This document shows, piece after piece, positions 5,145 to 51,138 of a stretch of DNA of 64,000 bases (its first letter is position 1; the number at the start of each line of letters is the position of its first letter). Origin of the DNA: Acidobacteriota bacterium (GTDB lineage Bacteria; Acidobacteriota; Vicinamibacteria; Marinacidobacterales; Marinacidobacteraceae); assembly GCA_009840635.1 (NCBI GenBank), contig VXNL01000020.1:13883-77882 (forward strand), given 5' to 3'. Both the position numbers and the translations under genes were made by a program. The notes under the pieces were generated by a model, which saw only the letters and a list, made by a program, of their open reading frames with translations, was not told the origin of the DNA and made no database searches.

Positions 5145-6227
5145 ATGCGCATCGCCGTGCTCGCGTCGGGAGGGGTGGACAGCTCCGTCGCCCTCGCCAC
5201 GCTGGCGCAGGCGGGTCACGACGTGCACGCCTTCTACCTGAAGGTCTGGCTCGAGGACGAGCTCGAGCATCTTGGGGAGTGCCCCTGGGAGGAGGACCTC
5301 CGTTACGCCCGTGCCGTCGCCGGACAGTTCGGGGTCCCGCTCACCGTGATCCCGTTGCAGCGCGCCTACCGGGAGGGCGTCGTCGCCTACCTCCTCGAGG
5401 AACTTGAGCGCGGAGGGACGCCGAGTCCCGATCTCTTCTGCAACTCGCGCATCAAGTTCGGGGCCTTCGCCGACTGGGTGGACGCCGAGGTCCCCGGCGG
5501 ACGCTTCGAAAGGGTGGCGACCGGCCACTACGCGCGGAGGGTCGAGACGGCGGACGGCGTCGAGCTGCACCGAGCCCCCGACCCGGTGAAGGACCAGACC
5601 TATTTCCTCTCCCGGATCAGCGGTCGCCAGCTCGAGCGGTCGTCGTTTCCGGTGGGGGACCTGCGGAAGACCGAGGTCCGGCGGCTCGCCGCCCGGCTCG
5701 GGCTCGCGCCGCAGGACCGCCGGGACAGTCAGGGCATCTGCTTTCTCGGGCGCGTGCGGTACCGCGACTTCGTCACCGCCCACCTCGGCGACCGGCCCGG
5801 ACCGGTCGTGGACGAGGCGACGGGAGACGAAATCGGCACCCACCGCGGGCACTGGCTGTTCACGATCGGCCAGCGGCGGGGCCTCGGCCTCGCGGGCGGC
5901 CCGTGGTTCGTCGCCGGGAAGGACCCGCGGGCGAACCGGGTCCTCGTGCGCCGGGGCGCCGGCCGGCCGGCGAACCGTTGCCTGGTCGAGGACCTTCACT
6001 GGATCGAAGGCGGTGCGTCGTCCGGCTCGGAGCGCCTCCACGTCCGGGTGCGGCACGGACCGGAACTGGTCCCGGCGCTGGTGTCGTGGGACGAGAACGG
6101 GGGAGGGGAGATCGTGCTCGACGGGCCGGACGAGGGCCTCGCTCCGGGTCAGTTCGCGGTCCTCTACCGGGGTACCCGCTGCCTCGGATCGGGGCGCATT
6201 GCGGGCGCCCCGCCCATTCCCGCCTAA
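5145..6227 (+). CDS. mnmA: tRNA 2-thiouridine(34) synthase
   Basis: 360 aa. PP-loop MRIAVLASGGVDSSVA, plus CNSRIKFG, KDQTYFL and GICFLG, all typical MnmA motifs. Confidence 0.9.
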   Translation: MRIAVLASGGVDSSVALATLAQAGHDVHAFYLKVWLEDELEHLGECPWEEDLRYARAVAGQFGVPLTVIPLQRAYREGVVAYLLEELERGGTPSPDLFCNSRIKFGAFADWVDAEVPGGRFERVATGHYARRVETADGVELHRAPDPVKDQTYFLSRISGRQLERSSFPVGDLRKTEVRRLAARLGLAPQDRRDSQGICFLGRVRYRDFVTAHLGDRPGPVVDEATGDEIGTHRGHWLFTIGQRRGLGLAGGPWFVAGKDPRANRVLVRRGAGRPANRCLVEDLHWIEGGASSGSERLHVRVRHGPELVPALVSWDENGGGEIVLDGPDEGLAPGQFAVLYRGTRCLGSGRIAGAPPIPA

Positions 6228-9966: not shown

Positions 9967-10719
9967 TCACGTCCGCAGCCACAGGGCGACCGCGAAGGCG
10001 AGGGTCGCGGCCGCCACGATGAAGCGCAGGATCCGGTCGCCGGCCCGCAGGGTCAGCCGGGCGCCGACGAGGGCCCCGGCAAAGGTCCCGATGCCGAGCG
10101 CCAGGCCCACCCCCCAGTCCACGACCCCGTTCGCGGCGAATACCGACAGCGACACGATGGAGAACAGGAAGATGCAGGCCACCTTGATCGCGTTTCCGGC
10201 CACCAGCCCGTACCCCGCCCAACTGGTGGCGCCGAGCGCCAGGAACCCGACCCCCGCCTGCAGGAAACCGCCGTAGAACCCCACGACGACGAATCCCGCG
10301 AGGAGTCCGATTCCGGTCCGGGGCGGCCCCTCTCGCGTTGGTGCGTCGACGTGGAGGAGCGGGAACAGCGTGAACAGCACCATGACGATGGACAGGAAGC
10401 GGAGGAAGAGCGTCTCCCCCACGTGCACCGCCAGGGTGCTGCCGAGGCCAGCCCCGAGGATCGCCGCGAGGCCGAGCCGGACCAGCACGCCCACCGGCAG
10501 TACGTCGGCGCGGCGGAAGGCGGCCGTAGCGCCGGCGCTCTGGATCAGGATCGCGAGCCGGTTCGTGCCGTTGGCGACGGTATGGGGCAGTCCCAACAGG
10601 ATCAGCAAAGGCAGGGTGAGGAACGATCCGCCGCCGGCGACCGTGTTGAGCGCACCCGCGACGAAGCCTGCCGGAATGAGCAGCAGGGCGGCGATGACCG
10701 GATCAGCGATCGTCGCCAC
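9967..10719 (-). CDS. TauE/SafE (TSUP) family sulfite/anion exporter-like membrane protein
   Basis: About 250 aa and 7-8 TM, with [21 protein letters not shown] and [13 protein letters not shown] repeats. GTG 10719 was chosen and the start is uncertain. Confidence 0.75.
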
Positions 10720-11158
10720 CTTCCGGACTGCGGAAGTCGAGAGCCGCGGAGTTGATGCACCAGCGCTCTCCGGTCTCCCGGGGCGGGCCGTCCGGGAAGA
10801 CGTGGCCGAGGTGCGCGTCGCAGCGCGCGCAGCTCGCTTCGGTGCGCACCATGCCGAGACTGCGGTCCACCGAGGTGGCGGTCGCATCGCGGTCCGCGGG
10901 CCGCGTGAAGCTCGGCCAGCCGCTCCCGGAGTCGTACTTGTCCTTCGAGGAGAAGAGGAGCGCTCCGCAGCAGACGCAACGGTATTCCCCGTCCCTGCGA
11001 TTCGTGTAGTGAGCGCCGGTGAACGGCGGTTCGGTGGCGCCGCGGCGGGTGACGGCGAACTGTTCCGCCGTCAGTTGGCCGCGCCATTCCGCGTTGGTTT
11101 TGCGGATCTTTCCGGGCTTGGTCATGGCGTCGTCAGGCGGCGTTCGTGAGGCCGTCAC
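10703..11158 (-). CDS. msrB: peptide-methionine (R)-S-oxide reductase
   Basis: Two CxxC zinc motifs ([21 protein letters not shown]), GSGWPSF, and the catalytic RWCINS. GTG 11158 overlaps the upstream small-ORF stop (GTGA). An internal ATG at 11125 is an alternative start. Confidence 0.9.
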
Positions 11159-17426: not shown

Positions 17427-19283
17427 ATGGGCTTCGGCGCCGCCCCGCTGCTGATCGCGCTCGGCGTCCTGCTGACCGCGGGCATCATCGTGGTGCTCTA
17501 TTGGGTCCGGCCGGAGCCTCAGCCGGTGGTGGTTCCCTCGAACCTCATCTGGCGCCGGGTCCTCGACGAACGCCGGCGCCGCGAGGACTTCTGGCGCTGG
17601 CTCGTTTCGCTGGTGATTGCGCTCCTGGCCGGACTCGCCGTGATCCTGGCCATGGCGCAGCCGCTACCCGAGGGCGCCGCCCGGGGCGGCCGGATCGTCG
17701 TGGTGATGGACACGGCGCCGAGCATGGCGGCCGCGCTCCCCGGAGGGGGGACGCGCTGGGAACAGGCGGCGGAGCAGGTGCGGCGCATCCTGACCGGCAG
17801 CAGCGAGACCAGTGAATTCCTGCTGCTCGACACCGCCGGAGATCGCGGCGGGCGTTCCTTCATCGGCCGGCGGGAGGCGTTCGAGGCCCTCGACGAGCTC
17901 GGTCCGGTGCACGGCCGGGAGCACCGCTTTCCCGATGTGGCGGATCTGCTCGGGTCGGGATCCGCTGCCGCCCCGGCGGCCGACGTGATCTTCGTCGGGG
18001 ACGGGGTGTACGTGCCGGAAGCGCCCGAGGGCGTGGAGCGCATCTCGGTCTTCGAGTCGGTGCCGAACGCCGGGATCACGGCGTTCGACGTCCGTCCGCT
18101 GCCGTCCGATCCGGGCCGTTTCGAGGCGTTCATCGAGGTCGTGCGGCACCCGGCCGGCGAGGATGACGCGGGGGTCGTGGTCCTCCAGATTGACGGTGCG
18201 GGTGGCGCCTCCGCACGCCGGACGCTCCGGCCCGACCCCGGAACGCCGCTTGGCGAAACGGTGCCGCTGACCGGATTCGTCGCCGGACCGGTGCGCGCCG
18301 TGATTGCGATCTCCGGCGAGGACGGCCTGCCGGCCGACGACGTGGCGCACGCTTACATCCCGGCCCGGAACCGGCTCCGGGTGCTCCTCGCCGGGGGGCC
18401 GAACCCCTTCTGGGAGGCGGCCCTGCGCCTCGATCCCCGGGTCAGTCTGTCCATGGCGCCCCCGGGTCCGGACGCGCTTGCCGATCTCGATTCCGGCTCG
18501 CTGGACCTCGTGGTCGTCGAGGGTGCGCCCCCGGAGGTGATGCCGCCGGTGCCGGTGCTCTTCGCCGGGTCCGGCAGCGCCGGGTGGCTCCCCCCGCGTC
18601 GCGCGAGCGAGGCGGCGAGTCCGGGGGACGAAGAGGGAACGACGGTCATGCTCCCCGTGGTGCGGGGGCAGGCGGAACACCCGCTCCTCCGGGACCTCAA
18701 CTTCGAGGACGCGCTGGCCAGGGACGTGGCGGCGTTCGACGCGGCCTCGCTCGGGGACCGGGGCCCGTGGACGCTGCTGCTCGGCGACTCGCGTCTCGGG
18801 CTGCTCGCGGCGCGTGAGAGCCCCCTGCGCAGTCTGGCGTTCGCTTTCCCGATCGCCCGGTCCAATCTGCCGCTCCAGGCGGATTTCCCGCTGCTGCTCT
18901 CCCGGGCCCTGAGCTGGCTGACGGACGTGGACGTCCGCCGCGTCGGGCTGGGGCAGGCCCGGGTGGCGATGGCCGCCGGCGCCATTTTCGATGCCGAAGG
19001 CCGGGAGGTGCCGTCCCGGCGCCTGGGCTCCGAGATTTCCTTCGACGCCAGCGAGCCTTCCCTCTATTACGCCGCCGGCGGCGGGCGTGAGGTCGTGGTG
19101 GCGGCGAGCCTGCTCGACCGGCGCGCCTCAAGCCTGAACCAGTCCGCGTGGGCCGGTGAACCTCCGGCCTCCCTGGCGCCGGCGGGAACCGTCGCGAGCG
19201 CCATCTGGCCGATCCTCGCGCTGTTCGCGCTCCTGTTGATCGTTGCCGAGTGGGTCGCCTTCCACCGCCACGCGACGGTCTGA
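17427..19283 (+). CDS. BatA-like protein (aerotolerance-regulator N-terminal domain + vWA-like domain, C-terminal TM anchor)
   Basis: 618 aa. N-terminal double TM with WRRVLDERRRREDFWRW, RIVVVMDTAPSM (DxSxS-like), and a C-terminal TM WPILALFALLLIVAEWVAF. Confidence 0.75.
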   Translation: MGFGAAPLLIALGVLLTAGIIVVLYWVRPEPQPVVVPSNLIWRRVLDERRRREDFWRWLVSLVIALLAGLAVILAMAQPLPEGAARGGRIVVVMDTAPSMAAALPGGGTRWEQAAEQVRRILTGSSETSEFLLLDTAGDRGGRSFIGRREAFEALDELGPVHGREHRFPDVADLLGSGSAAAPAADVIFVGDGVYVPEAPEGVERISVFESVPNAGITAFDVRPLPSDPGRFEAFIEVVRHPAGEDDAGVVVLQIDGAGGASARRTLRPDPGTPLGETVPLTGFVAGPVRAVIAISGEDGLPADDVAHAYIPARNRLRVLLAGGPNPFWEAALRLDPRVSLSMAPPGPDALADLDSGSLDLVVVEGAPPEVMPPVPVLFAGSGSAGWLPPRRASEAASPGDEEGTTVMLPVVRGQAEHPLLRDLNFEDALARDVAAFDAASLGDRGPWTLLLGDSRLGLLAARESPLRSLAFAFPIARSNLPLQADFPLLLSRALSWLTDVDVRRVGLGQARVAMAAGAIFDAEGREVPSRRLGSEISFDASEPSLYYAAGGGREVVVAASLLDRRASSLNQSAWAGEPPASLAPAGTVASAIWPILALFALLLIVAEWVAFHRHATV

Positions 19284-19287
19284 GCGC

Positions 19288-20664
19288 ATGACGGTCCGGA
19301 CCCGGATCGCTCCCTCGCCGACCGGCGATCCGCACGTCGGGACGGCGTACCAGGCGCTGCTCAACTACGCCTACGCCAGGAAGCGCGGGGGCGCCTTCGT
19401 GCTCCGGGTGGAGGACACCGACCAGGCGCGTTCCACCCGGGCCTCCGAGGTCGCAATCCTCCGTTCGTTGCGCTGGCTCGGGCTCGCCTGGGACGAGGGC
19501 CCCGACGTCGGCGGCCCCTTCGCTCCCTATCGCCAGAGCGAGCGGGTCGAGGCGTGCCGGGAGGTGGCCGAACGGCTCCTGGGCGGCGGCAAGGCATATC
19601 GGGATTACGGGGAGGACGCCGGCGGGGCCTATGCCATCCGGCTCCGCACCCCGGAGACGGGCCGGATCGGGCTTCCCGACCGGCTCCGCCACGGTCTTTC
19701 CAAGGACTGGGAGTCGGTGGACGATCCGGTGCTGCTCAAGTCGGACGGGTTCCCGACCTACCACCTCGCGAACGTCGTGGACGACCACCTGATGGAGATC
19801 ACGGACGTGATCCGGGGGGAGGAGTGGATCGCATCGCTCCCCAAGCACCTCCTGCTCTACGACACGCTCGGGTGGGAGCCGCCTTCCTTCTGGCACGTTC
19901 CGCTGCTCCGGAACAACGACCCGAACCGAACCAAGCTGAGCAAGCGGAAGAGTCCGACCTCGATCGACTTCTACCGGCAGGCGGGTTTCCTGCCCGAAGC
20001 GCTCCTCAACTTCCTGGGGATGCTGGCCTGGACCCGGGCGGAGGGAGAGGAGAAGTTCACCCTGGAGGCGTTCGTCGAGCACTTCGAGCTCGGAACCCTC
20101 TCGTTGGCCGGCGCCGTCTTCGACACCGAGAAGCTGGCGTGGCTGAACGGCCGTTACCTGCGGGAGGACTACGAGCCGGCGGACCTCGCCGGTTTGCTAC
20201 GTCAATGGCGTTTCGACGACCACACCCTGGAAACGGCCGCCGGGCTGGCGCAGCCCCGGATGCGCACCCTGGGCGACTTCGGACCGCTGGCGTCCCTCTT
20301 CTTCACCGATGAGACGCCCTGCGATCCGGACACGCTTGCGGGAGGCCTCGAGCACTCCGAGGTCGCGGAATGGCTCCTGCTCGCGGAATGGGCGCTGGAG
20401 GACCTTCCCGAGTTCACGGCGGACGCCGTCCACCAGGCGCTGCGGGCGCTCTCCGAATCGCTCGGGGTGAAGCTCAGGAAGTTCACCCGCCCGCTCTATG
20501 CCGCCGTCAGCGGTTCGCCGTCGTCCACCCCGCTCTTCGGGTCGATGGTCCTGCTCGGCAGTGCCATGACCCGCATGCGCCTGCGTCGTGCCCGGACGAC
20601 CCTCGGCGGCGTGCCCCGCCGCCGCGAGAAGGAACTCGAAGCCACCCATCGCGGGCGGCCCTGA
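19288..20664 (+). CDS. gltX: glutamate--tRNA ligase
   Basis: 458 aa from ATG 19288. Contains RIAPSPTGDPHVGTA (HIGH), VEDTD, and KLSKRKS (KMSKS). Confidence 0.9.
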   Translation: MTVRTRIAPSPTGDPHVGTAYQALLNYAYARKRGGAFVLRVEDTDQARSTRASEVAILRSLRWLGLAWDEGPDVGGPFAPYRQSERVEACREVAERLLGGGKAYRDYGEDAGGAYAIRLRTPETGRIGLPDRLRHGLSKDWESVDDPVLLKSDGFPTYHLANVVDDHLMEITDVIRGEEWIASLPKHLLLYDTLGWEPPSFWHVPLLRNNDPNRTKLSKRKSPTSIDFYRQAGFLPEALLNFLGMLAWTRAEGEEKFTLEAFVEHFELGTLSLAGAVFDTEKLAWLNGRYLREDYEPADLAGLLRQWRFDDHTLETAAGLAQPRMRTLGDFGPLASLFFTDETPCDPDTLAGGLEHSEVAEWLLLAEWALEDLPEFTADAVHQALRALSESLGVKLRKFTRPLYAAVSGSPSSTPLFGSMVLLGSAMTRMRLRRARTTLGGVPRRREKELEATHRGRP

Positions 20665-24721: not shown

Positions 24722-25033
24722 ATGGGCAATCTGAACGATCTCAAGCAGCGCCTGATGGAGGATCCCGAATTCCGGGAGTTGTACGCGCGGGCCGATGACG
24801 AGTTCAAGCTGATCGAGGCGTTGGTGCGAGCCCGCACGGCCGCCAGCCTGACGCAGTCCGAACTCGCCCGGCGTCTGGGGACGACTCAGTCCGCGATCGC
24901 GCGGCTGGAGGGTGGCCGGGTGTCGCCGTCCTTCGCCACCTTGCGCCGCTACGCCGAAGCGACCGGGACACGGCTGGTGGTGGGCTTGGCGTCCGCCGAC
25001 GACCCACGGAGCGCGACCGCGCCGGCCCCGTAG
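24722..25033 (+). CDS. XRE-family helix-turn-helix protein (HigA/antitoxin-like)
   Basis: 103 aa with LTQSELARRLGTTQSAIARLEGG, a classic HTH_3 motif. Starts 4 nt after the D-aminoacylase stop. Confidence 0.8.
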   Translation: MGNLNDLKQRLMEDPEFRELYARADDEFKLIEALVRARTAASLTQSELARRLGTTQSAIARLEGGRVSPSFATLRRYAEATGTRLVVGLASADDPRSATAPAP

Positions 25034-25122: not shown

Positions 25123-25608
25123 ATGCGTAATCTGCGGTTCCCGGCCGTTTTGGCTGTGCTCTCGCTCGGACTCGGGCTCGCGGCCGACGCCCACGCCCAG
25201 GGCGGCGCCAACGCCACCGAGCGCTACGGGGTCTGGCGGCTCCGGTCGGACAACCCGCCGCCCTACAAGAACATCATGACCTACGCGCCCCATGGAGACG
25301 GGGGCATGAGCATCGAGGTGGCCACCACGAACTCCGAGGGGGACACCTCGGTGTGGAGCTACGTCACGATGTTCGACGGCGTCTTCCGCCCGGTCGAGGG
25401 GCTCGAGAGTTCCGAGACGGCGGTCGAGATCGTGACCGAGCGAAGCACCCGCATCCTGAACGCCCGGAACGGCGCGGTGTACCAGGTGATCATCAACACC
25501 CTCTCCGAGGACGGCAACCGGATCGACAACGACTACGTCCGGGTGGATGCGGACGGGAAGATCACCCGGGTGACGCGGGCCACCTACGACCGGGTCCAGG
25601 AGGAGTAG
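25123..25608 (+). CDS. secreted hypothetical protein
   Basis: 161 aa. Signal peptide MRNLRFPAVLAVLSLGLGLAADAHA. AGGAGGA lies 7 nt upstream of the ATG. No family recognised. Confidence 0.6.
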   Translation: MRNLRFPAVLAVLSLGLGLAADAHAQGGANATERYGVWRLRSDNPPPYKNIMTYAPHGDGGMSIEVATTNSEGDTSVWSYVTMFDGVFRPVEGLESSETAVEIVTERSTRILNARNGAVYQVIINTLSEDGNRIDNDYVRVDADGKITRVTRATYDRVQEE

Positions 25609-25610
25609 GC

Positions 25611-26006
25611 GTGGCCGGCGGCAACCTGACGTGGCGGTATCACCGCCCCGGGTGAATGAGCTGCAAGAGGACGCAGGAGTTTCTTGCGGCAAACGGCATT
25701 GCGGACGGGGAAATCCAGAACGCCAACAGGGCCCCGATCCAGGGCGACGAGGCCCTCACGCTGCTGGACGGTGTGGACGAGCTCCTGGTCGCCAAGGGCC
25801 GCAAGGTGGAGCGGTTCGACCTCACCGGCGACCGCCCGGACGACGCCACCCTGAGCGGGGCGATGGTCGGGAGCTATACGAACCTGACCGACCTGCTCCT
25901 CGGCCGCTCGGGCAAGCTCCGTGCGCCTACGATGCGCGTCGGCGACCGGCTGGTGGTGGGCTACAACCAGGAATTGCTGGAGCAGGTCTTCGGGCAGGGC
26001 GCGTAA
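25611..26006 (+). CDS. ArsC/YffB/Spx-family thioredoxin-fold protein, predicted selenoprotein (in-frame TGA 25653-25655 read as Sec; U-x-x-C)
   Basis: AGGAGG at 25598-25603, 7 nt, then GTG 25611. Conceptual product MAGGNLTWRYHRPG-U-MSCKRTQEFLAANGI...KLRAPTMRVGDRLVVGYNQELLEQVF. The ORF track only reports the part after the TGA (25656..26006). Confidence 0.6.
25661..25689 (+). promoter_or_regulatory. SECIS-like hairpin 5 nt downstream of the in-frame UGA
   Basis: CTGCAAGA (25661-68) pairs with TCTTGCGG (25682-89), 8 bp including one G-U. There is an inner AC/GT step and a 6-nt apical loop GCAGGA (25673-78). Confidence 0.45.
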
Positions 26007-26820: not shown

Positions 26821-28881
26821 ATGAAAAACGTCTTGATCGCCCTTGCTGCACTGCTGCTCGCCGGTGGCGCCGCCGCCCAGGAGACCGCCGGCGACGGGCG
26901 GCTCACCGCCTCGCACATCCTGGATTGGGAACGGGTGAGCGGCCCGGCCATCGCCCCCGACGGCTCGGTGGTCATCTACACCCGCAGCCACGTGGACCAG
27001 ACGAAGGACCGGTGGGCCTCGGAACTGTGGATCGTGAACGCCGACGGCAGCCGCAACCGCTTCCTGACCAGGGGATCGGGTCCGGTGTGGTCGCCGGACG
27101 GCACCCGCATCGCCTACCTCGCGGACGCCGGGGACGACGGGAGCCAGATCTTCGTCCGCTGGATGGACGCCGAGGGCGCCACCTCGCAGATCACCCGGGA
27201 CGGTCGGACCCCGCGGGACATCCACTGGTCGCCGGACTCGAAGCACATCGCCTTCACCCGGATGGTCGCCGCTCCCGAGACCTGGGACCTGCCGTCGATG
27301 CCTCGCGCTCCCGACGGCGCCGAATGGACGAAGACGCCCCGGATCGTCCGGAAGATGCACTTCCGGCAGGACCGGGTGGGCTTCCTCGAGGAGGGTTACC
27401 GCCATCTCTTCGTGGCTCCCGCTGACGGCGGGGCGGCGCGCCAGCTCACCAAGGGCGGCTGGCACGTCGGCTCGCGCGGCGCCGTCGGCCTCGACTACGG
27501 CGCGGGGCTCGACTGGACTCCGGACGGCAAGGGTCTCGTCTTCGACGCCTCCCGGGCTGAGGACGCCGACCTCCGCTACCGCGAGTCGCACATCCACTTC
27601 GTGGACCTCGCAAGCGGAGCGATCCGCCAGATCACCGACAAGCGGGGTCCCTGGTCCGGACCGGTGGTCTCGCCCGACGGGCAGCACGTCGCCTTCAGCG
27701 GCTACGACTGGACGGAACAGACCTACAAGGTGAGCGACCTCCAGGTGATCGGGTTCGACGGCTCCGCCATGCGCTCGCTCTCGGCGAGCCTCGACCGGGA
27801 CGCCAACAATCCGATCTGGGGCCCCGACAGCGACCGGATCTACTTCACCGCCGACGACCGCGGGTCCCGCAACCTGCACGTGGCTTCCCTGGACGGGGGG
27901 ACCAGCCCGGTGACCGAGGGCACCCACATGCTCACCGTGAACACGATCTCGGCGACGGGCATCGCGGCCGCGGTCCGGACCTCCTTCCACGAGCCCGCGG
28001 ACGTGGTCGTCTTTCCGGTCTCCGACCCGTCCCGGAGCACTCGGGTGACCGCGGTGAACGACGATGTGCTGGCCGGGGTCGAGCTCGGCGAGGTGGAGGA
28101 GCTCTGGTACGACTCGACGGGCGGGACCCGGGCGCAGGGCTGGGTCATCAAGCCGCCCGGTTTCGATCCCGCCCGGAAGTACCCGATGGTGCTCCACATC
28201 CACGGCGGGCCCCACGCCATGTACAACGTGGCCTTCAACAACGCCTTCCAGAACTTCGCCGCCAACGACTACCTCCTGCTCTACACGAACCCACGGGGCA
28301 GCACCGGCTACGGGACCGACTTCGGCAACGCCATCGACAACGGCTACCCGAGCGTGGACTACGACGACCTCATGGCGGGCGTGGACGCGACCATCGAGCG
28401 CGGCTACGTGGACGAGAGCCGGATGTACGTGACCGGGTGCAGCGGGGGCGGGGTGCTGTCCTCCTGGGTGATCGGCCAGACCAACCGCTTCGCGGCCGCC
28501 TCGGTGCGCTGCCCGGTGGTGAACTGGATGAGCTTCGCCGGCACCGCCGACATCGTGCGCTGGGGTTACAGCCGCTACCACGGTTTCCCCTGGGACAACG
28601 CCGAGAAGTACCTCGAGCACTCGTCCCTCATGTACGTGGACCGGGTCACCACTCCGACCCTGCTGATGACCGGCGAGCTCGACCTGCGGACGCCGATGAG
28701 CCAGACCGAGGAGTACTACCAGGCCCTCAAGGCCGTGGGCGTCCCCACCGAGCTGGTGCGCTTCTACGACGAGTACCACGGGACGAGTTCGCAGCCCTCG
28801 AACTTCATCCGCACCCAGCTCTACATGCTGGACTGGTTCTCGCGCTACACGCGCGACCCGGCCGGGGAGACCGACCGATGA
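26821..28881 (+). CDS. S9-family serine peptidase (prolyl oligopeptidase / acylaminoacyl-peptidase type) with N-terminal TolB-like propeller
   Basis: 686 aa. Signal peptide, WSPDG repeats, nucleophile elbow VTGCSGGG, and C-terminal GELDLRTP...YHG. Confidence 0.9.
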   Translation: MKNVLIALAALLLAGGAAAQETAGDGRLTASHILDWERVSGPAIAPDGSVVIYTRSHVDQTKDRWASELWIVNADGSRNRFLTRGSGPVWSPDGTRIAYLADAGDDGSQIFVRWMDAEGATSQITRDGRTPRDIHWSPDSKHIAFTRMVAAPETWDLPSMPRAPDGAEWTKTPRIVRKMHFRQDRVGFLEEGYRHLFVAPADGGAARQLTKGGWHVGSRGAVGLDYGAGLDWTPDGKGLVFDASRAEDADLRYRESHIHFVDLASGAIRQITDKRGPWSGPVVSPDGQHVAFSGYDWTEQTYKVSDLQVIGFDGSAMRSLSASLDRDANNPIWGPDSDRIYFTADDRGSRNLHVASLDGGTSPVTEGTHMLTVNTISATGIAAAVRTSFHEPADVVVFPVSDPSRSTRVTAVNDDVLAGVELGEVEELWYDSTGGTRAQGWVIKPPGFDPARKYPMVLHIHGGPHAMYNVAFNNAFQNFAANDYLLLYTNPRGSTGYGTDFGNAIDNGYPSVDYDDLMAGVDATIERGYVDESRMYVTGCSGGGVLSSWVIGQTNRFAAASVRCPVVNWMSFAGTADIVRWGYSRYHGFPWDNAEKYLEHSSLMYVDRVTTPTLLMTGELDLRTPMSQTEEYYQALKAVGVPTELVRFYDEYHGTSSQPSNFIRTQLYMLDWFSRYTRDPAGETDR

Positions 28882-36172: not shown

Positions 36173-37968
<1,796 letters not shown>

Positions 37969-37972
<4 letters not shown>

Positions 37973-38718
37973 CGCACCTCCGGCCCTCCCCGCCGGTCGT
38001 CCCGGACGAAACGGTCGCGGGCGGGCATCCGGATTCGGGGCAGCGACTCGGCGTCGAGGGAGTCGCCCGACTCGAGGAGCCCGTTCAACTGCAGGATGAA
38101 AGCGGTCAGGGCGTAGACGTCGTCGGGAGGCAGGCTGCCGGGCGCCGCCTGGGGCATCGCCCGCCGGATGTAGTCGAAGAGCGTGGTCGCGTAGGGCCAG
38201 TAGCTGCCCACCGTGATCGGATAGCGCCGATCCTCGGAGAAGGGAAAGCGGTCGCCGGGGACGCGGCCGGCCAGGGCCTCGAACTGGGAACCCTCGCCGC
38301 GGGCGCCGTGACACTGGACGCACTGCAGCCGGTAGAGGGTCTCGCCCCGTTCCACCGAACCGCTGCCCGGAGGCAGTCCTTCGCCGTCGGGTCCGATGTC
38401 GATGTCCCAGGCGGCGATCCGTTCCGGGCTGGCGGTCTCGCCGAAGCCGAAATCGGGGAGTCCGGCGATGTCTCGAAGGCCACCCTCGCGCGCCTGGCGG
38501 AGCGCCTCGAGTTCCGCGTCGTTCAGCAGGCCGGGCATCCCGGGGTGGAGTTCGGGCCGGGGCAGCGAGGACGACGCTTCGGACGGAACCGGCGTGGCGG
38601 CATCATCCTCCGCGGCGACCACCGAGGAGCCGGTCGAAGGTTCCGGGCCGCAGGCCGAGAGCAGCAGGAGCGCGGCGGCTGCTGCGGCGTAGCTAGCCGG
38701 CAAAAAAGACCCGCCCAT
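37969..38718 (-). CDS. c-type cytochrome lipoprotein (SorB-like electron acceptor of the sulfite dehydrogenase)
   Basis: 249 aa from ATG 38718. Lipobox LLLLSAC and a single haem motif CVQCHG. The stop overlaps the glnS start (ATGA 37969-37972). Confidence 0.65.
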
Positions 38719-47624: not shown

Positions 47625-48781
47625 CTTCCGCGATAGGCGAGCGTCAGGCAGGTGATGTCGTCGGACTGATGTTCACCGCCCGAAAAAACGCGGACTGCCT
47701 CGATGACGGCCCGGTTGATCTCCTCGGGGGACCGGTCGGCGACGGTCTCGAGAGTCTCTTCGAGGCGATGGTTCTCGAACAACTCCTTGTCGGGAGCCTC
47801 GGCCTCGGGCACGCCGTCGGTGTAGAGGAAGACCCGGTCACCTGGCTGGAGCTGCACCTTGTCCTCGGTGTAGGGGAAGTCGGGCATGACCCCGAGCGCG
47901 ATCCCCTGCGTCAGGGGAAGTTCCTGCGGTTTCTGGCCGGCGCGAACCAGGTACGGGGCGCAGTGGCCCGCGTTCGCGTACGTGAACGTGCCTTGCTCCG
48001 TGTCGAGTACCCCGAACAGCAGGGTCACGAACATGGCCCGCTCGTTCTCCTCCCCGAGCAGATTGTTGACCTGGGTCAGCGCTTCGCCCGGAGAGAGCGC
48101 GCTTACCGCGTTCCCCTTGACGAGGGTTCGGCTGACCATCATGAAGAGGGCTGCCGGTACGCCCTTGCCCGAAACGTCCGCCATGACCACCCCGAGCCTT
48201 TGTCCGGGGAGGTGGAACACGTCGTAGAAATCCCCGCCCACATCCTGTGCCGGAGTCATGATCGCGTGGGTGTCGGCGTTCGCCGTGGATGGGAATCGCT
48301 GCGGCAGGATGGACATCTGCATGTCGCGGGCGACGCGCAGTTCCTGATGGAGCGCCAGCAGTTGCGCCCGATGCTTGAGCGCCTCGCGCATCATGGCGAG
48401 GTGGGTCATCGTCTTCTCGATGGTGAGTTCGAGATCCTTGAAATCGATCGGCTTGGTGACGAAGTCGAAGGCGCCGCGGTTCATCGCGGTCCGGATGTTC
48501 GCCATGTCGCCGTACGCGGAGACCACCACCGCGCGGCACTTCGGACGAATGGTCCGCAGCTCGTTCAGCAGGGTCAGACCGTCCATCCGGGGCATGTTGA
48601 TGTCGGTCATGATGAGCTCGATTTCGGGGTGGCCTTCGAGGGCCTCGAGCGCCTGAACGCCGTCGTGCGCGAACACGAAACGCATCTCGTCCTTGCGGAT
48701 GCGGCGGCGGAACCGCTGGCGGATCAGCGTCTCGAGATCTGGTTCGTCGTCGACCACCAGGATCGTGCAGGGTTCAATCAT
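47621..48781 (-). CDS. response regulator with PP2C/SpoIIE phosphatase output (RsbU-like)
   Basis: 386 aa. Receiver ILVVDDEP...MTDINMPRMDG...KP, and PP2C motifs DVGGDFYDVF, ADVSGKGVPAALFM, LYTDGVPEA. Confidence 0.85.
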   Translation of the reverse strand: MIEPCTILVVDDEPDLETLIRQRFRRRIRKDEMRFVFAHDGVQALEALEGHPEIELIMTDINMPRMDGLTLLNELRTIRPKCRAVVVSAYGDMANIRTAMNRGAFDFVTKPIDFKDLELTIEKTMTHLAMMREALKHRAQLLALHQELRVARDMQMSILPQRFPSTANADTHAIMTPAQDVGGDFYDVFHLPGQRLGVVMADVSGKGVPAALFMMVSRTLVKGNAVSALSPGEALTQVNNLLGEENERAMFVTLLFGVLDTEQGTFTYANAGHCAPYLVRAGQKPQELPLTQGIALGVMPDFPYTEDKVQLQPGDRVFLYTDGVPEAEAPDKELFENHRLEETLETVADRSPEEINRAVIEAVRVFSGGEHQSDDITCLTLAYRGS

Positions 48782-48899
48782 GGACTTGAAATTATCTCAC
48801 GTGGGGGCCATCCCTCCGGCCGGCCGCGCTCCGGCGACGGTTGAAGGCCCGATCAGGTTCCGTTACGTTCGGGTCTTCCGTTGTGTAAAGGGGACCTCA

Positions 48900-50228
48900 A
48901 TGAAGAACAAGACAGTATCCCGTCGTCGTTTTCTCGGAGCCTCGGCGGCCGCCGTCGGGGCCGCCGCTCTTCCCGGCGGGATGCTCGCCGCCGCCGCGGC
49001 AGGCCAGCGGCCGGTTCCTCCCCTGCCGCTCGGAGACCTCGCGCCCCCGGCGAGCCCCGGTGAGGACTTCTGGTGGAAAGTGCGCTCGCAGTTCAACGTC
49101 GTGGACGGGATGGCGTTCATGAACAACGGCACCCTGGGTCCCACCCCGCGGGTGGTGGCCGACGAGGAAGCACGGATCTACGCCGAGATCGCCGCCGATC
49201 CGACGAACGGCTACCGCCGGGCGGAACTCCACGAGAAGCGTGGCACGCTCGCTTCGTTCATTGGCGCCGAGCCCGACGAGGTCACCTACACCCGGAGCAC
49301 CACCGAGGGCATGAACATCTTCGGACGGGGTCTCGACTGGCGCGAAGGGGACGAGGTGCTCATGTGCACCCACGAGCACAACGGCGGCATCGAGCCCTAC
49401 ATCCACGCCCGCGAACGCTACGGCGTCGTGATCAAGTGGGTCGATATCCCTTCCCCTCCGGAGAGCACGGACCAGATCCTCTCCATCTACGCGAACGCGA
49501 TCGGGCCCCGGACGCGGGCCATCATGGTGAGCCACATCACCTACGTGACCGGCCTCCTGATGCCGGTGAAGGAACTCACCGACCTCTGCAACCGGAGGAA
49601 CCTCCTGCTCTCGGTGGACGGCGCCCATCCGCTCGGGATGATCGCCCTCGACATGAAGGACCTGGGCTGCCACCACTACGCGGGAGCCGGCCAGAAGTGG
49701 CTCATGGCGGGCACCGGCACCGGCGTTTCCTTCATTCGGCGGGACACGATGGGCGATATCTGGCCCCTCATCGGCGCCGGCACTTACCGGGAGGACGGTG
49801 AACGCCGTTTCCGCGAGGACTCCCGGAAGTACGAGAACACCGGGCAGCGCCACGTGCCGAGTCAGTACGCGCTCGTGAAGTCGATCGAGTTCCAGAACGT
49901 CCTCGGAAAGGATCTCATCGAAGCGAGGGTGCGCACGCTCTCGCGGCGTCTGAAGAACGGCCTCCGGGCGATTCCGGGGGTCAGGCTCTGGACTTCCATG
50001 AGCGACGAACTCGCCGCCGGTCTCACGCTGTTCTCGGTCCACGACCTGCCGATGGAGAACGTGCAGCAGGCGATCCTGGACCGCGACCGGGTGTTCATCC
50101 GCACGATGAGCACCGGCAACCTCAACGCGGTGCGGGCCTCCACCCACCTCTACAACATGCCGCACGAGGTGGACCGTCTGATCGCGAGCGTCCGCCACAT
50201 CGCCGCCAACCCAACGCAGTACATGTAG
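48900..50228 (+). CDS. Tat-exported class V aminotransferase-fold PLP enzyme (cysteine desulfurase / isopenicillin-N-epimerase-like)
   Basis: 442 aa from ATG 48900. Tat motif SRRRFLGASAAAVGAAAL, then FMNNGTLGP, SHITYVTG, and YAGAGQKWLMAGTG (PLP-Lys context). Confidence 0.8.
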   Translation: MKNKTVSRRRFLGASAAAVGAAALPGGMLAAAAAGQRPVPPLPLGDLAPPASPGEDFWWKVRSQFNVVDGMAFMNNGTLGPTPRVVADEEARIYAEIAADPTNGYRRAELHEKRGTLASFIGAEPDEVTYTRSTTEGMNIFGRGLDWREGDEVLMCTHEHNGGIEPYIHARERYGVVIKWVDIPSPPESTDQILSIYANAIGPRTRAIMVSHITYVTGLLMPVKELTDLCNRRNLLLSVDGAHPLGMIALDMKDLGCHHYAGAGQKWLMAGTGTGVSFIRRDTMGDIWPLIGAGTYREDGERRFREDSRKYENTGQRHVPSQYALVKSIEFQNVLGKDLIEARVRTLSRRLKNGLRAIPGVRLWTSMSDELAAGLTLFSVHDLPMENVQQAILDRDRVFIRTMSTGNLNAVRASTHLYNMPHEVDRLIASVRHIAANPTQYM

Positions 50229-50397: not shown

Positions 50398-51138
50398 CTA
50401 TTCCGTAAGCGCCTCCCGAAACCCCGGCGCGCTCAGGTCCGGATCTTCCACGGGCAGTTCCGGGACCTCGCCGCGCCAGCCCGCGACCGCCCGCTCGATG
50501 CTGACCCGGCGCGCCTCACTCAGGGCGCCCTGCGGCGAAGGAGTCCGTCCCTCGAACCAGGCAAGCGCGGCCACCGCCGCGCCCACCGGCGCCTGGTCGC
50601 CGTAGATGCGGCGCATCGCTCCCACCGCCTCGGCCAGCGTCGTCCCGCTCTCGAGGAGCGCGGCCACATCGGCTACGTCGTTTTCCTCGTGGCGCTGGTA
50701 GGCCATCGCCAGCTTGAACCCGGCGAGGTCGAGGCGGGACGCCACCCGGGGCCCGGTGGCGGCGGCGCACGGCAGGTCCAGCCGGGGAACCCCGATCCGC
50801 CCGAAGAACGACAGACGGACGACGGCGTCGGCGAATCCGACGTCGAGGGTCAGCGTGTCCCCCGTGTCCTGCAACACCTCGAGGGGATGGTCCGCGAACT
50901 CCGCCGCCAGCGAGCGTTTCGCCACCTCCGGCAGCGCTTCCGAGGAAAAGAAATCGAAGTCCTCGGAGTCCCGGTGGCCGGTCTGCAGCGCCACCGCGGT
51001 TCCGCCGTAAAGCACGAAACCGGAGCGCAGAAAGGAAAGGCGCGGAAAGAGCGCTCGCTGGGCCGGCGACAGGCGGCTCAGCCGAAGAGTTGGAGGCACG
51101 TCCGGTAGTCCACCGGTCCCGGACGGCGAGGAGGCCAC
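50398..51138 (-). CDS. AbiEii/AbiGii-family nucleotidyltransferase (type IV TA toxin-like, DUF1814)
   Basis: 246 aa with FVLYGGTAVALQTGHRDSEDFDFF, the NTase G-G-T...S-x-D-x-D signature of the family. GTG 51138, with alternative starts at GTG 51099 or CTG 51081. Confidence 0.7.
   Translation of the reverse strand: MASSPSGTGGLPDVPPTLRLSRLSPAQRALFPRLSFLRSGFVLYGGTAVALQTGHRDSEDFDFFSSEALPEVAKRSLAAEFADHPLEVLQDTGDTLTLDVGFADAVVRLSFFGRIGVPRLDLPCAAATGPRVASRLDLAGFKLAMAYQRHEENDVADVAALLESGTTLAEAVGAMRRIYGDQAPVGAAVAALAWFEGRTPSPQGALSEARRVSIERAVAGWRGEVPELPVEDPDLSAPGFREALTE

What the first reader, a model, noticed from the sequence alone, without database searches (positions are those of the whole stretch)
25598..26006. 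Recoded UGA: an ArsC/YffB-like thioredoxin-fold gene that only makes sense as a U-x-x-C selenoprotein
The ORF track starts this gene at ATG 25656 (MSCKRTQEFLAANGI...), directly after an in-frame TGA (25653-25655). That start has no Shine-Dalgarno. It would also delete beta-strand 1 and the first redox cysteine of the ArsC/Spx/YffB fold. Reading the same frame upstream gives AGGAGG (25598-25603), 7 nt, GTG 25611, then A G G N L T W R Y H R P G - TGA - M S C K R T Q E F L A A N G I. Against the E. coli YffB N-terminus as I recall it ([24 protein letters not shown]), the TGA falls exactly on the first Cys of the CxxC. The flanks also align: LTWRYH with TLYGIK, and KRTQEFLAANGI with [12 protein letters not shown]. 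The C-terminal RAPTMRVGDRLVVGY matches the family RP-loop region. GTG 25611 lies 2 nt after the stop of the upstream gene, which is operon-like. Five nt after the TGA a hairpin can form: CTGCAAGA (25661-68) with TCTTGCGG (25682-89), an inner AC/GT step, and the apical loop GCAGGA (25673-78). This places G residues about 21-25 nt after the U of UGA, the geometry expected of a bacterial SECIS. Sec replacing the N-terminal Cys of CxxC in thioredoxin-fold proteins is the commonest kind of bacterial selenoprotein.
Basis: partly seen in the sequence, partly recalled or inferred. Interest (0 to 1): 0.75.

Follow-up and report, generated by a model that had tools for sequence, protein, structure and literature searches.

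The report
Known-family ArsC-like selenoprotein gene
This is a real selenocysteine-encoding gene (in-frame UGA plus a downstream RNA hairpin) for a small ArsC/Spx-fold redox protein, but the family is already catalogued as a selenoprotein, so it is a correct call, not a new one.

Summary
The sequence features are exactly as described. The true gene is 25611-26006 (GTG start, 131 codons) with UGA 25653-25655 read as selenocysteine in a U15-x-x-C18 motif.

- **Family.** With U written as C, the product scores 110.8 bits (cutoff 85) on NCBIfam NF041106, "ArsC family (seleno)protein". Reviews list this family as a UxxC selenoprotein, first seen in ocean metagenomes in 2008.
- **Conservation.** All 80 best orthologous loci (Acidobacteriota, Gemmatimonadota, Latescibacterota) carry TGA at this codon. 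The seven codons before it (WRYHRPG) vary almost only at synonymous sites. More distant homologues have Cys there.
- **SECIS.** The conserved, covarying element is a 7-bp hairpin, 25672-25678 with 25682-25688, loop GUU. It fits the published bacterial SECIS model and is held in place by rare codons (TTT, CTT).
- **Fold.** The nearest solved relative is Spx. U aligns with Spx Cys10 and C18 with Cys13.
- **Not shown.** No selA/B/C/D genes lie in the window, and the rest of the genome was not available. The biochemical substrate is unknown.

Verdict: interpretation supported, already known, low novelty.

The parts
25598..25603 (+). Shine-Dalgarno AGGAGG, 7 nt before the GTG start, lying inside the last codons of the upstream gene
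   Evidence: Sequence
25611..26006 (+). Full coding sequence of the ArsC-family selenoprotein: 131 codons including Sec15, GTG start, TAA stop
   Evidence: Translation. NF041106 110.8 bits, model positions 2-106 of 107. The start position aligns with ATG in orthologues.
25611..25652 (+). Fourteen N-terminal codons (MAGGNLTWRYHRPG), forming beta-strand 1 and the loop before the redox motif. Public gene calls omit them.
   Evidence: WRYHRPG is identical in 76 of 81 sequences. Variation at codon positions 1/2/3 is 6/3/152. In the model of Cys homologue P0015 the equivalent residues 3-9 form strand 1.
25653..25655 (+). UGA read as selenocysteine (U15)
   Evidence: TGA in 80 of 80 related loci plus the window. 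Cys in P0015, P0022, P0025 and P0085. Aligns with Spx Cys10.
25662..25664 (+). TGC, the resolving Cys18 of the U-x-x-C motif
   Evidence: Invariant C18 in alignment A1. Aligns with Spx Cys13.
25672..25688 (+). Conserved SECIS-type hairpin: 5' arm 25672-25678 (CGCAGGA), loop G25679-U-U25681, 3' arm 25682-25688 (UCUUGCG)
   Evidence: Seven pairs are formed in 75-79 of 79 distinct sequences, with compensatory changes at two pairs; 26 double-change cells against 4.9 +/- 1.7 in shuffles, 0 of 500. RNAalifold predicts this hairpin unaided. Energy is -8.7 kcal/mol, with 23 nt between UGA and the loop.
25660..25690 (+). It uses the same 3' arm, so it cannot coexist with the conserved one.
   Evidence: Minimum-free-energy fold at -16.5 kcal/mol. 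No covariation, and four of its pairs are unpaired in most family members.
25902..25928 (+). G-R-S-G-K-L-R-A-P, the most conserved motif of the family. It aligns with the R-P loop of Spx.
   Evidence: Invariant G98, G101, L103, R104, A105 and P106. The alignment to Spx places it on LLRRP.
25123..25608 (+). Upstream 161-aa gene with a signal-peptide-like N-terminus and no family match. It ends 2 nt before the selenoprotein start, so it is probably co-transcribed.
   Evidence: ORF. No Pfam or NCBIfam hit. The same neighbour ends 39-45 nt before the TGA in 12 other loci of the Acidobacteriota clade.

Best explanation
Positions 25611-26006 encode a 131-residue cytoplasmic protein of the ArsC/Spx/YffB thioredoxin-like fold. 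It belongs to the catalogued family NF041106, "ArsC family (seleno)protein".

**Translation (inferred mechanism).**
- Translation starts at GTG 25611, served by AGGAGG 7 nt upstream, probably on one mRNA with the upstream gene.
- When the ribosome reaches UGA 25653, the first nucleotides after the codon lie in the mRNA channel. The 7-bp hairpin 25672-25688, with apical G-U-U, is then the stable local fold.
- That hairpin is bound by SelB carrying GTP and Sec-tRNA(Sec), and selenocysteine is inserted instead of terminating.

**Protein (inferred function).** Sec15 sits at the N-cap of helix 1, three residues before Cys18. The pair acts as a selenol/thiol redox centre: Sec attacks the substrate, a selenenylsulfide forms with Cys18, and a cellular thiol reductant recycles it.

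**Shown here:**
- family membership;
- conservation of the TGA;
- translation of both flanks in one frame;
- a covarying hairpin that meets the published bacterial SECIS criteria;
- Cys in homologues at the UGA position;
- the predicted fold, modelled on Cys homologue P0015.

**Inferred:** SelB binding, actual selenium incorporation, the catalytic cycle and the substrate.
For: **Family.**
- NF041106 scores 110.8 bits against a cutoff of 85. The truncated 116-aa call scores only 89.0 bits and starts at model position 12.
[quoted passage not shown] It traces back to the GOS survey, PMC2398784.

**Conservation of the codon and its flanks.**
- TGA is at the same codon in 80 of 80 loci from at least three phyla.
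- The seven upstream codons show 7858 synonymous against 474 nonsynonymous pairwise codon differences.
- Cys homologues align across the site.

**Hairpin.**
- Pair 42-56 is GC in 60, AU in 11 and UA in 4 sequences. Pair 44-54 is AU in 69 and GC in 9. No shuffle of 500 reaches the observed covariation, and versions slid by 1-3 columns are clearly worse.
- RNAalifold finds the same helix on its own.
- The compensating changes pair synonymous sites with amino-acid changes. The third base of the Thr/Ala codon (columns 40-42) tracks Ala/Val/Glu. Leu CTT changes to CTC only together with Gln changing to Arg.
- The stem needs TTT and CTT, which are 8.8% of Phe codons and 4.7% of Leu codons in this window. 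Given the peptide, codon usage alone would give the full stem with probability about 6e-4 (0.421 x 0.334 x 0.047 x 0.088, my arithmetic).
- It meets the published model (PMC13188914): loop 3-9 nt, G then U at the start of the loop, stem 4-16 bp, 16-37 nt from UGA, energy at most -7.5 kcal/mol. Here the values are GUU, 7 bp, 23 nt and -8.7 kcal/mol.
- Two of four Cys-form homologues have lost the hairpin and one has a mismatch.

**Other.**
- TGA is an ordinary stop for 16 of 35 window genes, so there is no genome-wide reassignment.
- The model of Cys homologue P0015 has pLDDT 94, with the Sec-equivalent Cys13 at the N-cap of helix 14-25.
- The nearest structures are Spx.
Against: - No selA, selB, selD or tRNA-Sec gene was found in the 64-kb window or in about 1.5 Mb of related loci. 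The rest of the source genome could not be searched.
- No Rfam model matches the hairpin.
- In this window the competing hairpin is about 8 kcal/mol more stable than the conserved one. The conserved fold therefore dominates only if the region just after UGA is occupied or unwound.
- One Cys-form homologue (L087, TGT) keeps the complete hairpin, so the link between hairpin and TGA is not absolute.
- The function is inferred from fold and motif only. No ars genes or other redox partners lie nearby.
Confidence: 0.9

Rival explanations
1. The TGA is a genuine stop. A 14-codon upstream reading frame ends there, and the real protein is the 116-residue product re-initiated at the adjacent ATG 25656 (UGA-AUG coupling), as public gene callers annotate it.
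For: - ATG follows the TGA directly in the window.
- The 116-aa product is what public collections call.
- It still passes the NF041106 cutoff, at 89.0 bits.
Against: - Only 7 of 81 sequences have ATG after the TGA. The others have Thr, Gln, Asn, Lys, Val or Glu codons, yet keep S-C-K in frame.
- There is no Shine-Dalgarno for ATG 25656.
- The truncated product lacks strand 1 and the first redox residue.
- WRYHRPG is under strong purifying selection and matches model positions 2-11 of the family.
- Cys homologues are continuous across the site.
Confidence: 0.03
2. The UGA is read through, but not as selenocysteine. It is read by near-cognate tRNA (Trp or Cys) or by a lineage-specific reassignment, and the hairpin merely stimulates read-through.
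For: - Sec machinery was not found in the sequence available.
- Three public clusters (P0012, P0019, P0023) show W at this position. These most likely came from gene calling under a TGA=Trp code.
Against: - TGA terminates 16 of 35 genes in the window.
- The site corresponds to the redox Cys of homologues and of Spx. Only Sec or Cys is functional there.
- The hairpin meets the SelB-type SECIS criteria, including the apical G-U.
- The family is curated as a selenoprotein.
- Sec-using Acidobacteriota are documented (PMC12013277).
Confidence: 0.04
3. The gene is a pseudogene, or the TGA is an assembly or sequencing error for TGC/TGT.
For: TGA is a single base change away from TGC or TGT.
Against: - The identical downstream product is found on nine independently assembled contigs.
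- TGA is present in all 80 orthologous loci from different species and studies.
- Both flanks are under purifying selection.
Confidence: 0.01

Closest known systems
NCBIfam NF041106, "ArsC family (seleno)protein". Listed as "Arsenate reductase-like protein, UxxC" in Zhang et al. 2026 (PMC13188914) and probably the "Arsenate reductase 2" of the GOS survey (PMC2398784).
   Same: - It scores above the curated cutoff over the whole model.
- It has the same U-x-x-C motif after W-R-Y-H-R-P-G.
- It has the same GRSGKLRAP motif.
- The length matches, apart from one insertion.
   Different: This clade (window, P0008, P0036, L001-L008) carries an 11-residue insertion (residues 80-90) that most members lack. 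It also has Met instead of Thr directly after Sec, which makes gene callers start there.
Spx (Bacillus subtilis and relatives; PDB 1Z3E, 3GFK, 6GHB), a CxxC redox-switch regulator that binds RNA polymerase
   Same: - It is the closest solved structure by sequence profile (E = 3e-6) and by fold (Foldseek probability 1.0, TM about 0.55).
- Sec15 and Cys18 align with Spx Cys10 and Cys13.
- The R-P loop is conserved.
   Different: - It fails the Spx/MgsR family cutoff: TIGR01617 scores 28.4 bits against a cutoff of 75.
- The modest TM score and an rmsd of about 7 A indicate a divergent middle subdomain, which the model builds with an extra beta-hairpin.
- There is no evidence of RNA polymerase binding.
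- It carries Sec instead of Cys.
YffB (PA3664, PDB 1RW1) and glutaredoxin-coupled arsenate reductase ArsC (R773 type, TIGR00014)
   Same: Same Pfam superfamily, PF03960. Fold match to 1RW1 has TM 0.56.
   Different: - Sequence relationship is weak. The profile against 1RW1 gives E = 0.43.
- TIGR00014 is not hit by the window protein. It scores 21.6 bits against a cutoff of 106 for homologue P0015.
- No ars genes lie nearby.
E. coli fdhF-type bacterial SECIS and the bSECISearch consensus model
   Same: - It is a hairpin within the coding region shortly after UGA.
- The loop begins G-U.
- Spacing, stem length and energy fall within the published ranges.
   Different: - The stem is short, 7 bp, with no bulged U, and the loop is only 3-5 nt.
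- It has no similarity to any Rfam SECIS model.
- In this clade it competes with a more stable alternative helix.

Membership tests
NF041106 ArsC family (seleno)protein | HMM score at or above the curated cutoff (85 bits) over the full model | tested here: met
   110.8 bits, residues 7-122 on model positions 2-106 of 107
NF041106 ArsC family (seleno)protein | U/C-x-x-C redox motif directly after strand 1, with Sec and Cys alternating among members | tested here: met
   U15-M-S-C18 in the window. C-x-S/T-C in P0015, P0022, P0025 and P0085. TGA in 80 of 80 loci.
Bacterial selenoprotein gene (SelB/SECIS-dependent UGA recoding) | In-frame UGA with both flanks translated in one frame | tested here: met
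   Upstream codons vary 6/3/152 at positions 1/2/3. The downstream frame is the family's conserved domain.
Bacterial selenoprotein gene (SelB/SECIS-dependent UGA recoding) | [quoted passage not shown] | tested here: met
   Loop GUU, 7 bp, 23 nt, -8.7 kcal/mol. Criteria from PMC13188914. Covariation support.
Bacterial selenoprotein gene (SelB/SECIS-dependent UGA recoding) | selA, selB, selC (tRNA-Sec) and selD present in the same genome | not testable with these tools
   None found in the 64-kb window or in 91 related loci.
Bacterial selenoprotein gene (SelB/SECIS-dependent UGA recoding) | Selenium incorporation shown experimentally | not testable with these tools
   Needs 75Se labelling or mass spectrometry.
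Spx/MgsR RNA-polymerase-binding regulators (TIGR01617) | HMM score at or above the cutoff (75.05 bits) | tested here: not met
   28.4 bits
Glutaredoxin-coupled arsenate reductase ArsC (TIGR00014) | HMM score at or above the cutoff (106.05 bits), with ars operon context | tested here: not met
   No hit at E <= 1 for the window protein. 21.6 bits for P0015. Neighbours are an amidohydrolase, an HTH protein, an unknown secreted protein, a glyoxalase and an S9 peptidase.
   Profile against 1RW1 gives E = 0.43, covering only the C-terminal half. Foldseek gives E = 6.9e-3, TM 0.56. Spx ranks higher in both.

The most novel reading that the evidence does not exclude
In the Acidobacteriota clade that includes this window, two mutually exclusive hairpins share one 3' arm (25682-25688). 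The stable outer helix (25660-25690, -16.5 kcal/mol) would sequester the arm until an elongating ribosome unwinds its 5' half. Only then would the conserved 7-bp SECIS (25672-25688) form, just as UGA enters the A site. On this reading the SECIS is gated by ribosome position, or regulated (for example by selenium supply), rather than a static hairpin.

A second open point: a family that is Sec, not Cys, in 80 of 80 top genomic hits across three phyla, and that often sits next to an S9 peptidase, may have a specific selenium-requiring substrate that is still unknown.
Probability: 0.1. Interest if true: 0.4.

Novelty: already known. Interest (0 to 1): 0.22.

Why it matters
**Annotation.** Every public gene call found for this gene and many of its relatives is truncated. 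They start at Met16 or further downstream, or show Trp at the Sec position. The redox centre is therefore missing from protein databases. The corrected model is GTG 25611, Sec at 25653, 131 residues.

**What the comparison adds.**
- It gives a family-wide SECIS definition with real covariation, which could seed an RNA model. Rfam has none that matches.
- It shows an RNA structure shaping protein sequence: Thr/Ala, Gln/Arg and Ala/Val/Glu in helix 1 change together to keep the base pairs.

**What it does not change.** Selenoprotein biology is unaffected. ArsC-like UxxC selenoproteins have been catalogued since 2006-2008, and this family has its own NCBIfam model.

Tried and rejected
1. **Rfam.** A search around the site at a permissive E-value, and of the whole window at gathering thresholds, gave no SECIS or other credible RNA family. 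The best hit was a spurious 25-bit match to Atu_At1.
2. **tRNA-Sec.** ARAGORN found none in the window or in any fetched locus.
3. **SelA/SelB/SelD probes.** The only hits were about 25% identical to the SelB GTPase domain. They fall in a gene cluster of median length 599 aa, so I read them as a LepA-type GTPase, not SelB. This is a weak negative.
4. **Pfam scan of about 30 window genes.** No sel genes turned up.
5. **Other recoded UGAs.** A screen by GC3 pattern and a tblastx screen with star-on-star alignment were both swamped by off-frame matches in this 70% GC DNA. One run timed out. Dropped.
6. **Structure prediction of the window protein itself (U written as C).** I modelled the Cys homologue P0015 instead.
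Rejected as the conserved element.
8. **Arsenate reductase or Spx-type regulator as the function.** Both family cutoffs failed, and there is no supporting gene context.
9. **Conserved neighbours as a clue to function.** The recurrent neighbours are a downstream S9 peptidase (27 loci) and an upstream 161-aa secreted protein (14 loci). Neither gives a redox lead.

Full report
**Observation.**
AGGAGG is at 25598-25603. The upstream gene stops at TAG 25606-25608. GTG is at 25611, in-frame TGA at 25653-25655, ATG at 25656 and TAA at 26004-26006.
- Reading through gives MAGGNLTWRYHRPG-U-MSCKRTQEFLAANGI..., a 131-codon frame.
- The mechanical ORF list and public gene calls report only the 116-residue product from ATG 25656.

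**Family.**
- With U written as C, the product matches NCBIfam NF041106, "ArsC family (seleno)protein". It scores 110.8 bits (cutoff 85) over model positions 2-106 of 107.
- The truncated product scores 89.0 bits and begins at model position 12.
- Pfam ArsC (PF03960) reaches its threshold, and profile position 1, only with the extension: 24.1 against 16.1 bits.
[quoted passage not shown] It cites the 2008 ocean-metagenome survey PMC2398784, which lists "Arsenate reductase 2, UxxC".
- ArsC-like selenoproteins were already tabulated in 2006 (PMC1794560).
- The kind of object is therefore known and curated.

**Comparative evidence for recoding.**
- A protein search returned many relatives. Most begin at MSCK or later, which means they are truncated at the TGA.
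- Four relatives (P0015, P0022, P0025, P0085) are continuous, with W-R/S/Y-Y-H-R-P-G-C-x-S/T-C.
- Three (P0012, P0019, P0023) show W at the site. These most likely came from gene calling under a TGA=Trp code.
- A scan of one genome per species returned 80 loci from Acidobacteriota (Vicinamibacteria, "Ca. Marinacidobacterium"), Gemmatimonadota (Longimicrobiales), Latescibacterota and one Gammaproteobacteria bin. All 80 carry TGA at the same codon.
- The closest loci, L018 (96%) and L001 (95%), are Acidobacteria metagenome bins, so the window is very probably from that lineage.
- In the seven codons before the TGA, variation falls 6/3/152 on codon positions 1/2/3. Pairwise codon differences are 7858 synonymous and 474 nonsynonymous, and WRYHRPG is identical in 76 of 81 sequences. 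That stretch is therefore translated in the same frame as the domain that follows.
- Only 7 of 81 sequences have ATG after the TGA, so stop-and-restart cannot explain the family.
- The GTG start aligns with ATG in L004, L008, L021, L022 and L024.
- TGA ends 16 of 35 window genes, so the codon is not reassigned genome-wide.

**The SECIS.**
- Across the 81-sequence ungapped alignment A2 it has no covariation, and four of its pairs are unpaired in most sequences.
- A different helix that uses the same 3' arm is conserved: 25672-25678 with 25682-25688, loop G-U-U.
- Its seven pairs form in 75-79 of 79 distinct sequences.
- Pair 42-56 is GC in 60, AU in 11 and UA in 4 sequences. Pair 44-54 is AU in 69 and GC in 9.
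- There are 26 double-change cells against 4.9 +/- 1.7 in shuffles (0 of 500), and sliding the partners by 1-3 columns destroys the signal.
- The compensations are informative. The synonymous third base of the Thr/Ala codon (columns 40-42) follows the middle base of the Ala/Val/Glu codon opposite. Leu is CTT in 72 sequences and CTC in 9, and CTC occurs only where Gln has become Arg.
- The stem requires TTT and CTT, which are 8.8% of Phe codons and 4.7% of Leu codons in this window.
- Given the peptide TQEFLA, codon usage alone would give the full stem with probability about 6e-4. This is my arithmetic: 0.421 x 0.334 x 0.047 x 0.088.
- The hairpin meets the published bacterial SECIS constraints (PMC13188914). 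The loop is GUU, or A-GUU-U with a closing A-U. The stem is 7 bp, there are 23 nt between UGA and the loop, and the energy is -8.7 kcal/mol.
- It becomes the minimum-energy fold once 9 or more nucleotides after the UGA are made unavailable, as they would be inside a ribosome decoding the UGA. The ribosome interpretation is my inference.
- Among four Cys-form homologues, two have lost the helix, one has a mismatch and one (TGT) keeps it.

**Protein.**
- AlphaFold2 on the Cys homologue P0015 gives a confident model (pLDDT 94). Strand 1 is residues 3-9, and the Sec-equivalent Cys13 is at the N-cap of helix 14-25.
- A family profile finds Spx as the best solved relative (E = 3e-6). The S-C of the motif aligns with Spx residues 12-13, which puts Sec15 on Spx Cys10 and Cys18 on Cys13.
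- Foldseek agrees: Spx has TM about 0.55, YffB 1RW1 has TM 0.56 at a weaker E-value, followed by ArsC-related proteins and glutaredoxins.
- The protein fails the Spx/MgsR cutoff. Against the arsenate reductase model TIGR00014, the window protein gives no hit and homologue P0015 scores far below the cutoff. It also has no ars neighbours.
- The most likely activity is a selenol/thiol oxidoreductase of unknown substrate. That step is inference from fold and motif.

**What could not be shown.**
- No selA, selB, selD or tRNA-Sec gene lies in the window or in the fetched loci, and the rest of the genome is out of reach.
- Sec-using Acidobacteriota are on record (PMC12013277), but that is support at phylum level only.

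**Verdict.**
- The SECIS is reassigned to 25672-25688, and the nearest relative is corrected to Spx/NF041106.
- The finding is a correct recognition of a member of an already catalogued selenoprotein family, so interest is low.
- The residual novelty lies in the covarying family SECIS and in the competing helix in this clade.

Noticed in passing
L069:10028-10039: One orthologue (a Gemmatimonadota bin) has U-T-S-S. The resolving Cys codon is AGT (Ser), while the TGA and the hairpin are kept. This is a UxxS variant inside a UxxC family.
   Followed up: partly
L087:68-415 (P0015): This Cys-form homologue uses TGT at the Sec position. It still has the complete 7-bp hairpin, including a compensated pair (Gln to Leu CTG opposite Leu CTA). 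That looks like a recent Sec-to-Cys conversion. L088 and L089 (TGC) have lost the hairpin and use the common codons TTC/CTC/GCC.
   Followed up: partly
window 25848-25880: The window, P0008, P0036 and the close Acidobacteriota loci carry an 11-residue insertion (TLSGAMVGSYT, residues 80-90) that the rest of the family lacks.
   Followed up: no
window 25672-25688 (alignment A2, columns 40-57): Amino acids in helix 1 change together to keep the RNA pairs. KRTQEFLA, KRAQEFLV and KRTREFLE are the main combinations. The SECIS therefore constrains protein sequence in the helix that begins at the active site.
   Followed up: yes
P0012, P0019, P0023 and most hits: Public protein sets hold this family almost only as truncated products (starting at MSCK, or 83-92 aa from a later Met/Val) or with Trp at the Sec position. 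P0030 is named "ArsC family (seleno)protein" by NCBI, yet it is also stored from MSCK onward.
   Followed up: partly
window 26821-28881 (+), and loci such as L025:10373-13441: A PD40/Tricorn-N plus S9 peptidase gene lies just downstream of the selenoprotein gene in 27 of 81 loci, across the Acidobacteriota and Longimicrobiales clades. Any functional link is unknown.
   Followed up: partly
window 24722-25033 (+) versus L081:4115-4746: The HTH (HigA-like) gene follows the amidohydrolase directly in the window. In the otherwise syntenic contig L081, a Gp49/HigB-type toxin gene sits in front of it. The toxin half of the pair is therefore variable between strains.
   Followed up: no
window 10703-11158 (-): An MsrB-like ORF (GWPSF..., RWCINS) with Cys at the catalytic position. 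In some organisms that position is Sec. Here it is the Cys form.
   Followed up: no
window 50398-51138 (-): An AbiEii-family nucleotidyltransferase toxin gene (type IV toxin-antitoxin/abortive infection), Pfam E = 3.6e-10.
   Followed up: no
window 19243-20664 (+) and 36173-38323 (-): Two class-I Glu/Gln-type aminoacyl-tRNA synthetase genes lie in one 64-kb window. The first matches the catalytic-domain profile in two separate stretches.
   Followed up: no
window 25633-25647 and 25649-25663: RNAalifold also draws two small helices, GGCG/CGCC before the UGA and one enclosing the UGA. They are almost invariant, so covariation says nothing for or against them.
   Followed up: no
window 5145-6227 (+) and 48693-50228 (+): MnmA (tRNA 2-thiouridylase) and a class-V aminotransferase (cysteine desulfurase/selenocysteine lyase type) are present. 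Neither is specific to selenium metabolism.
   Followed up: no
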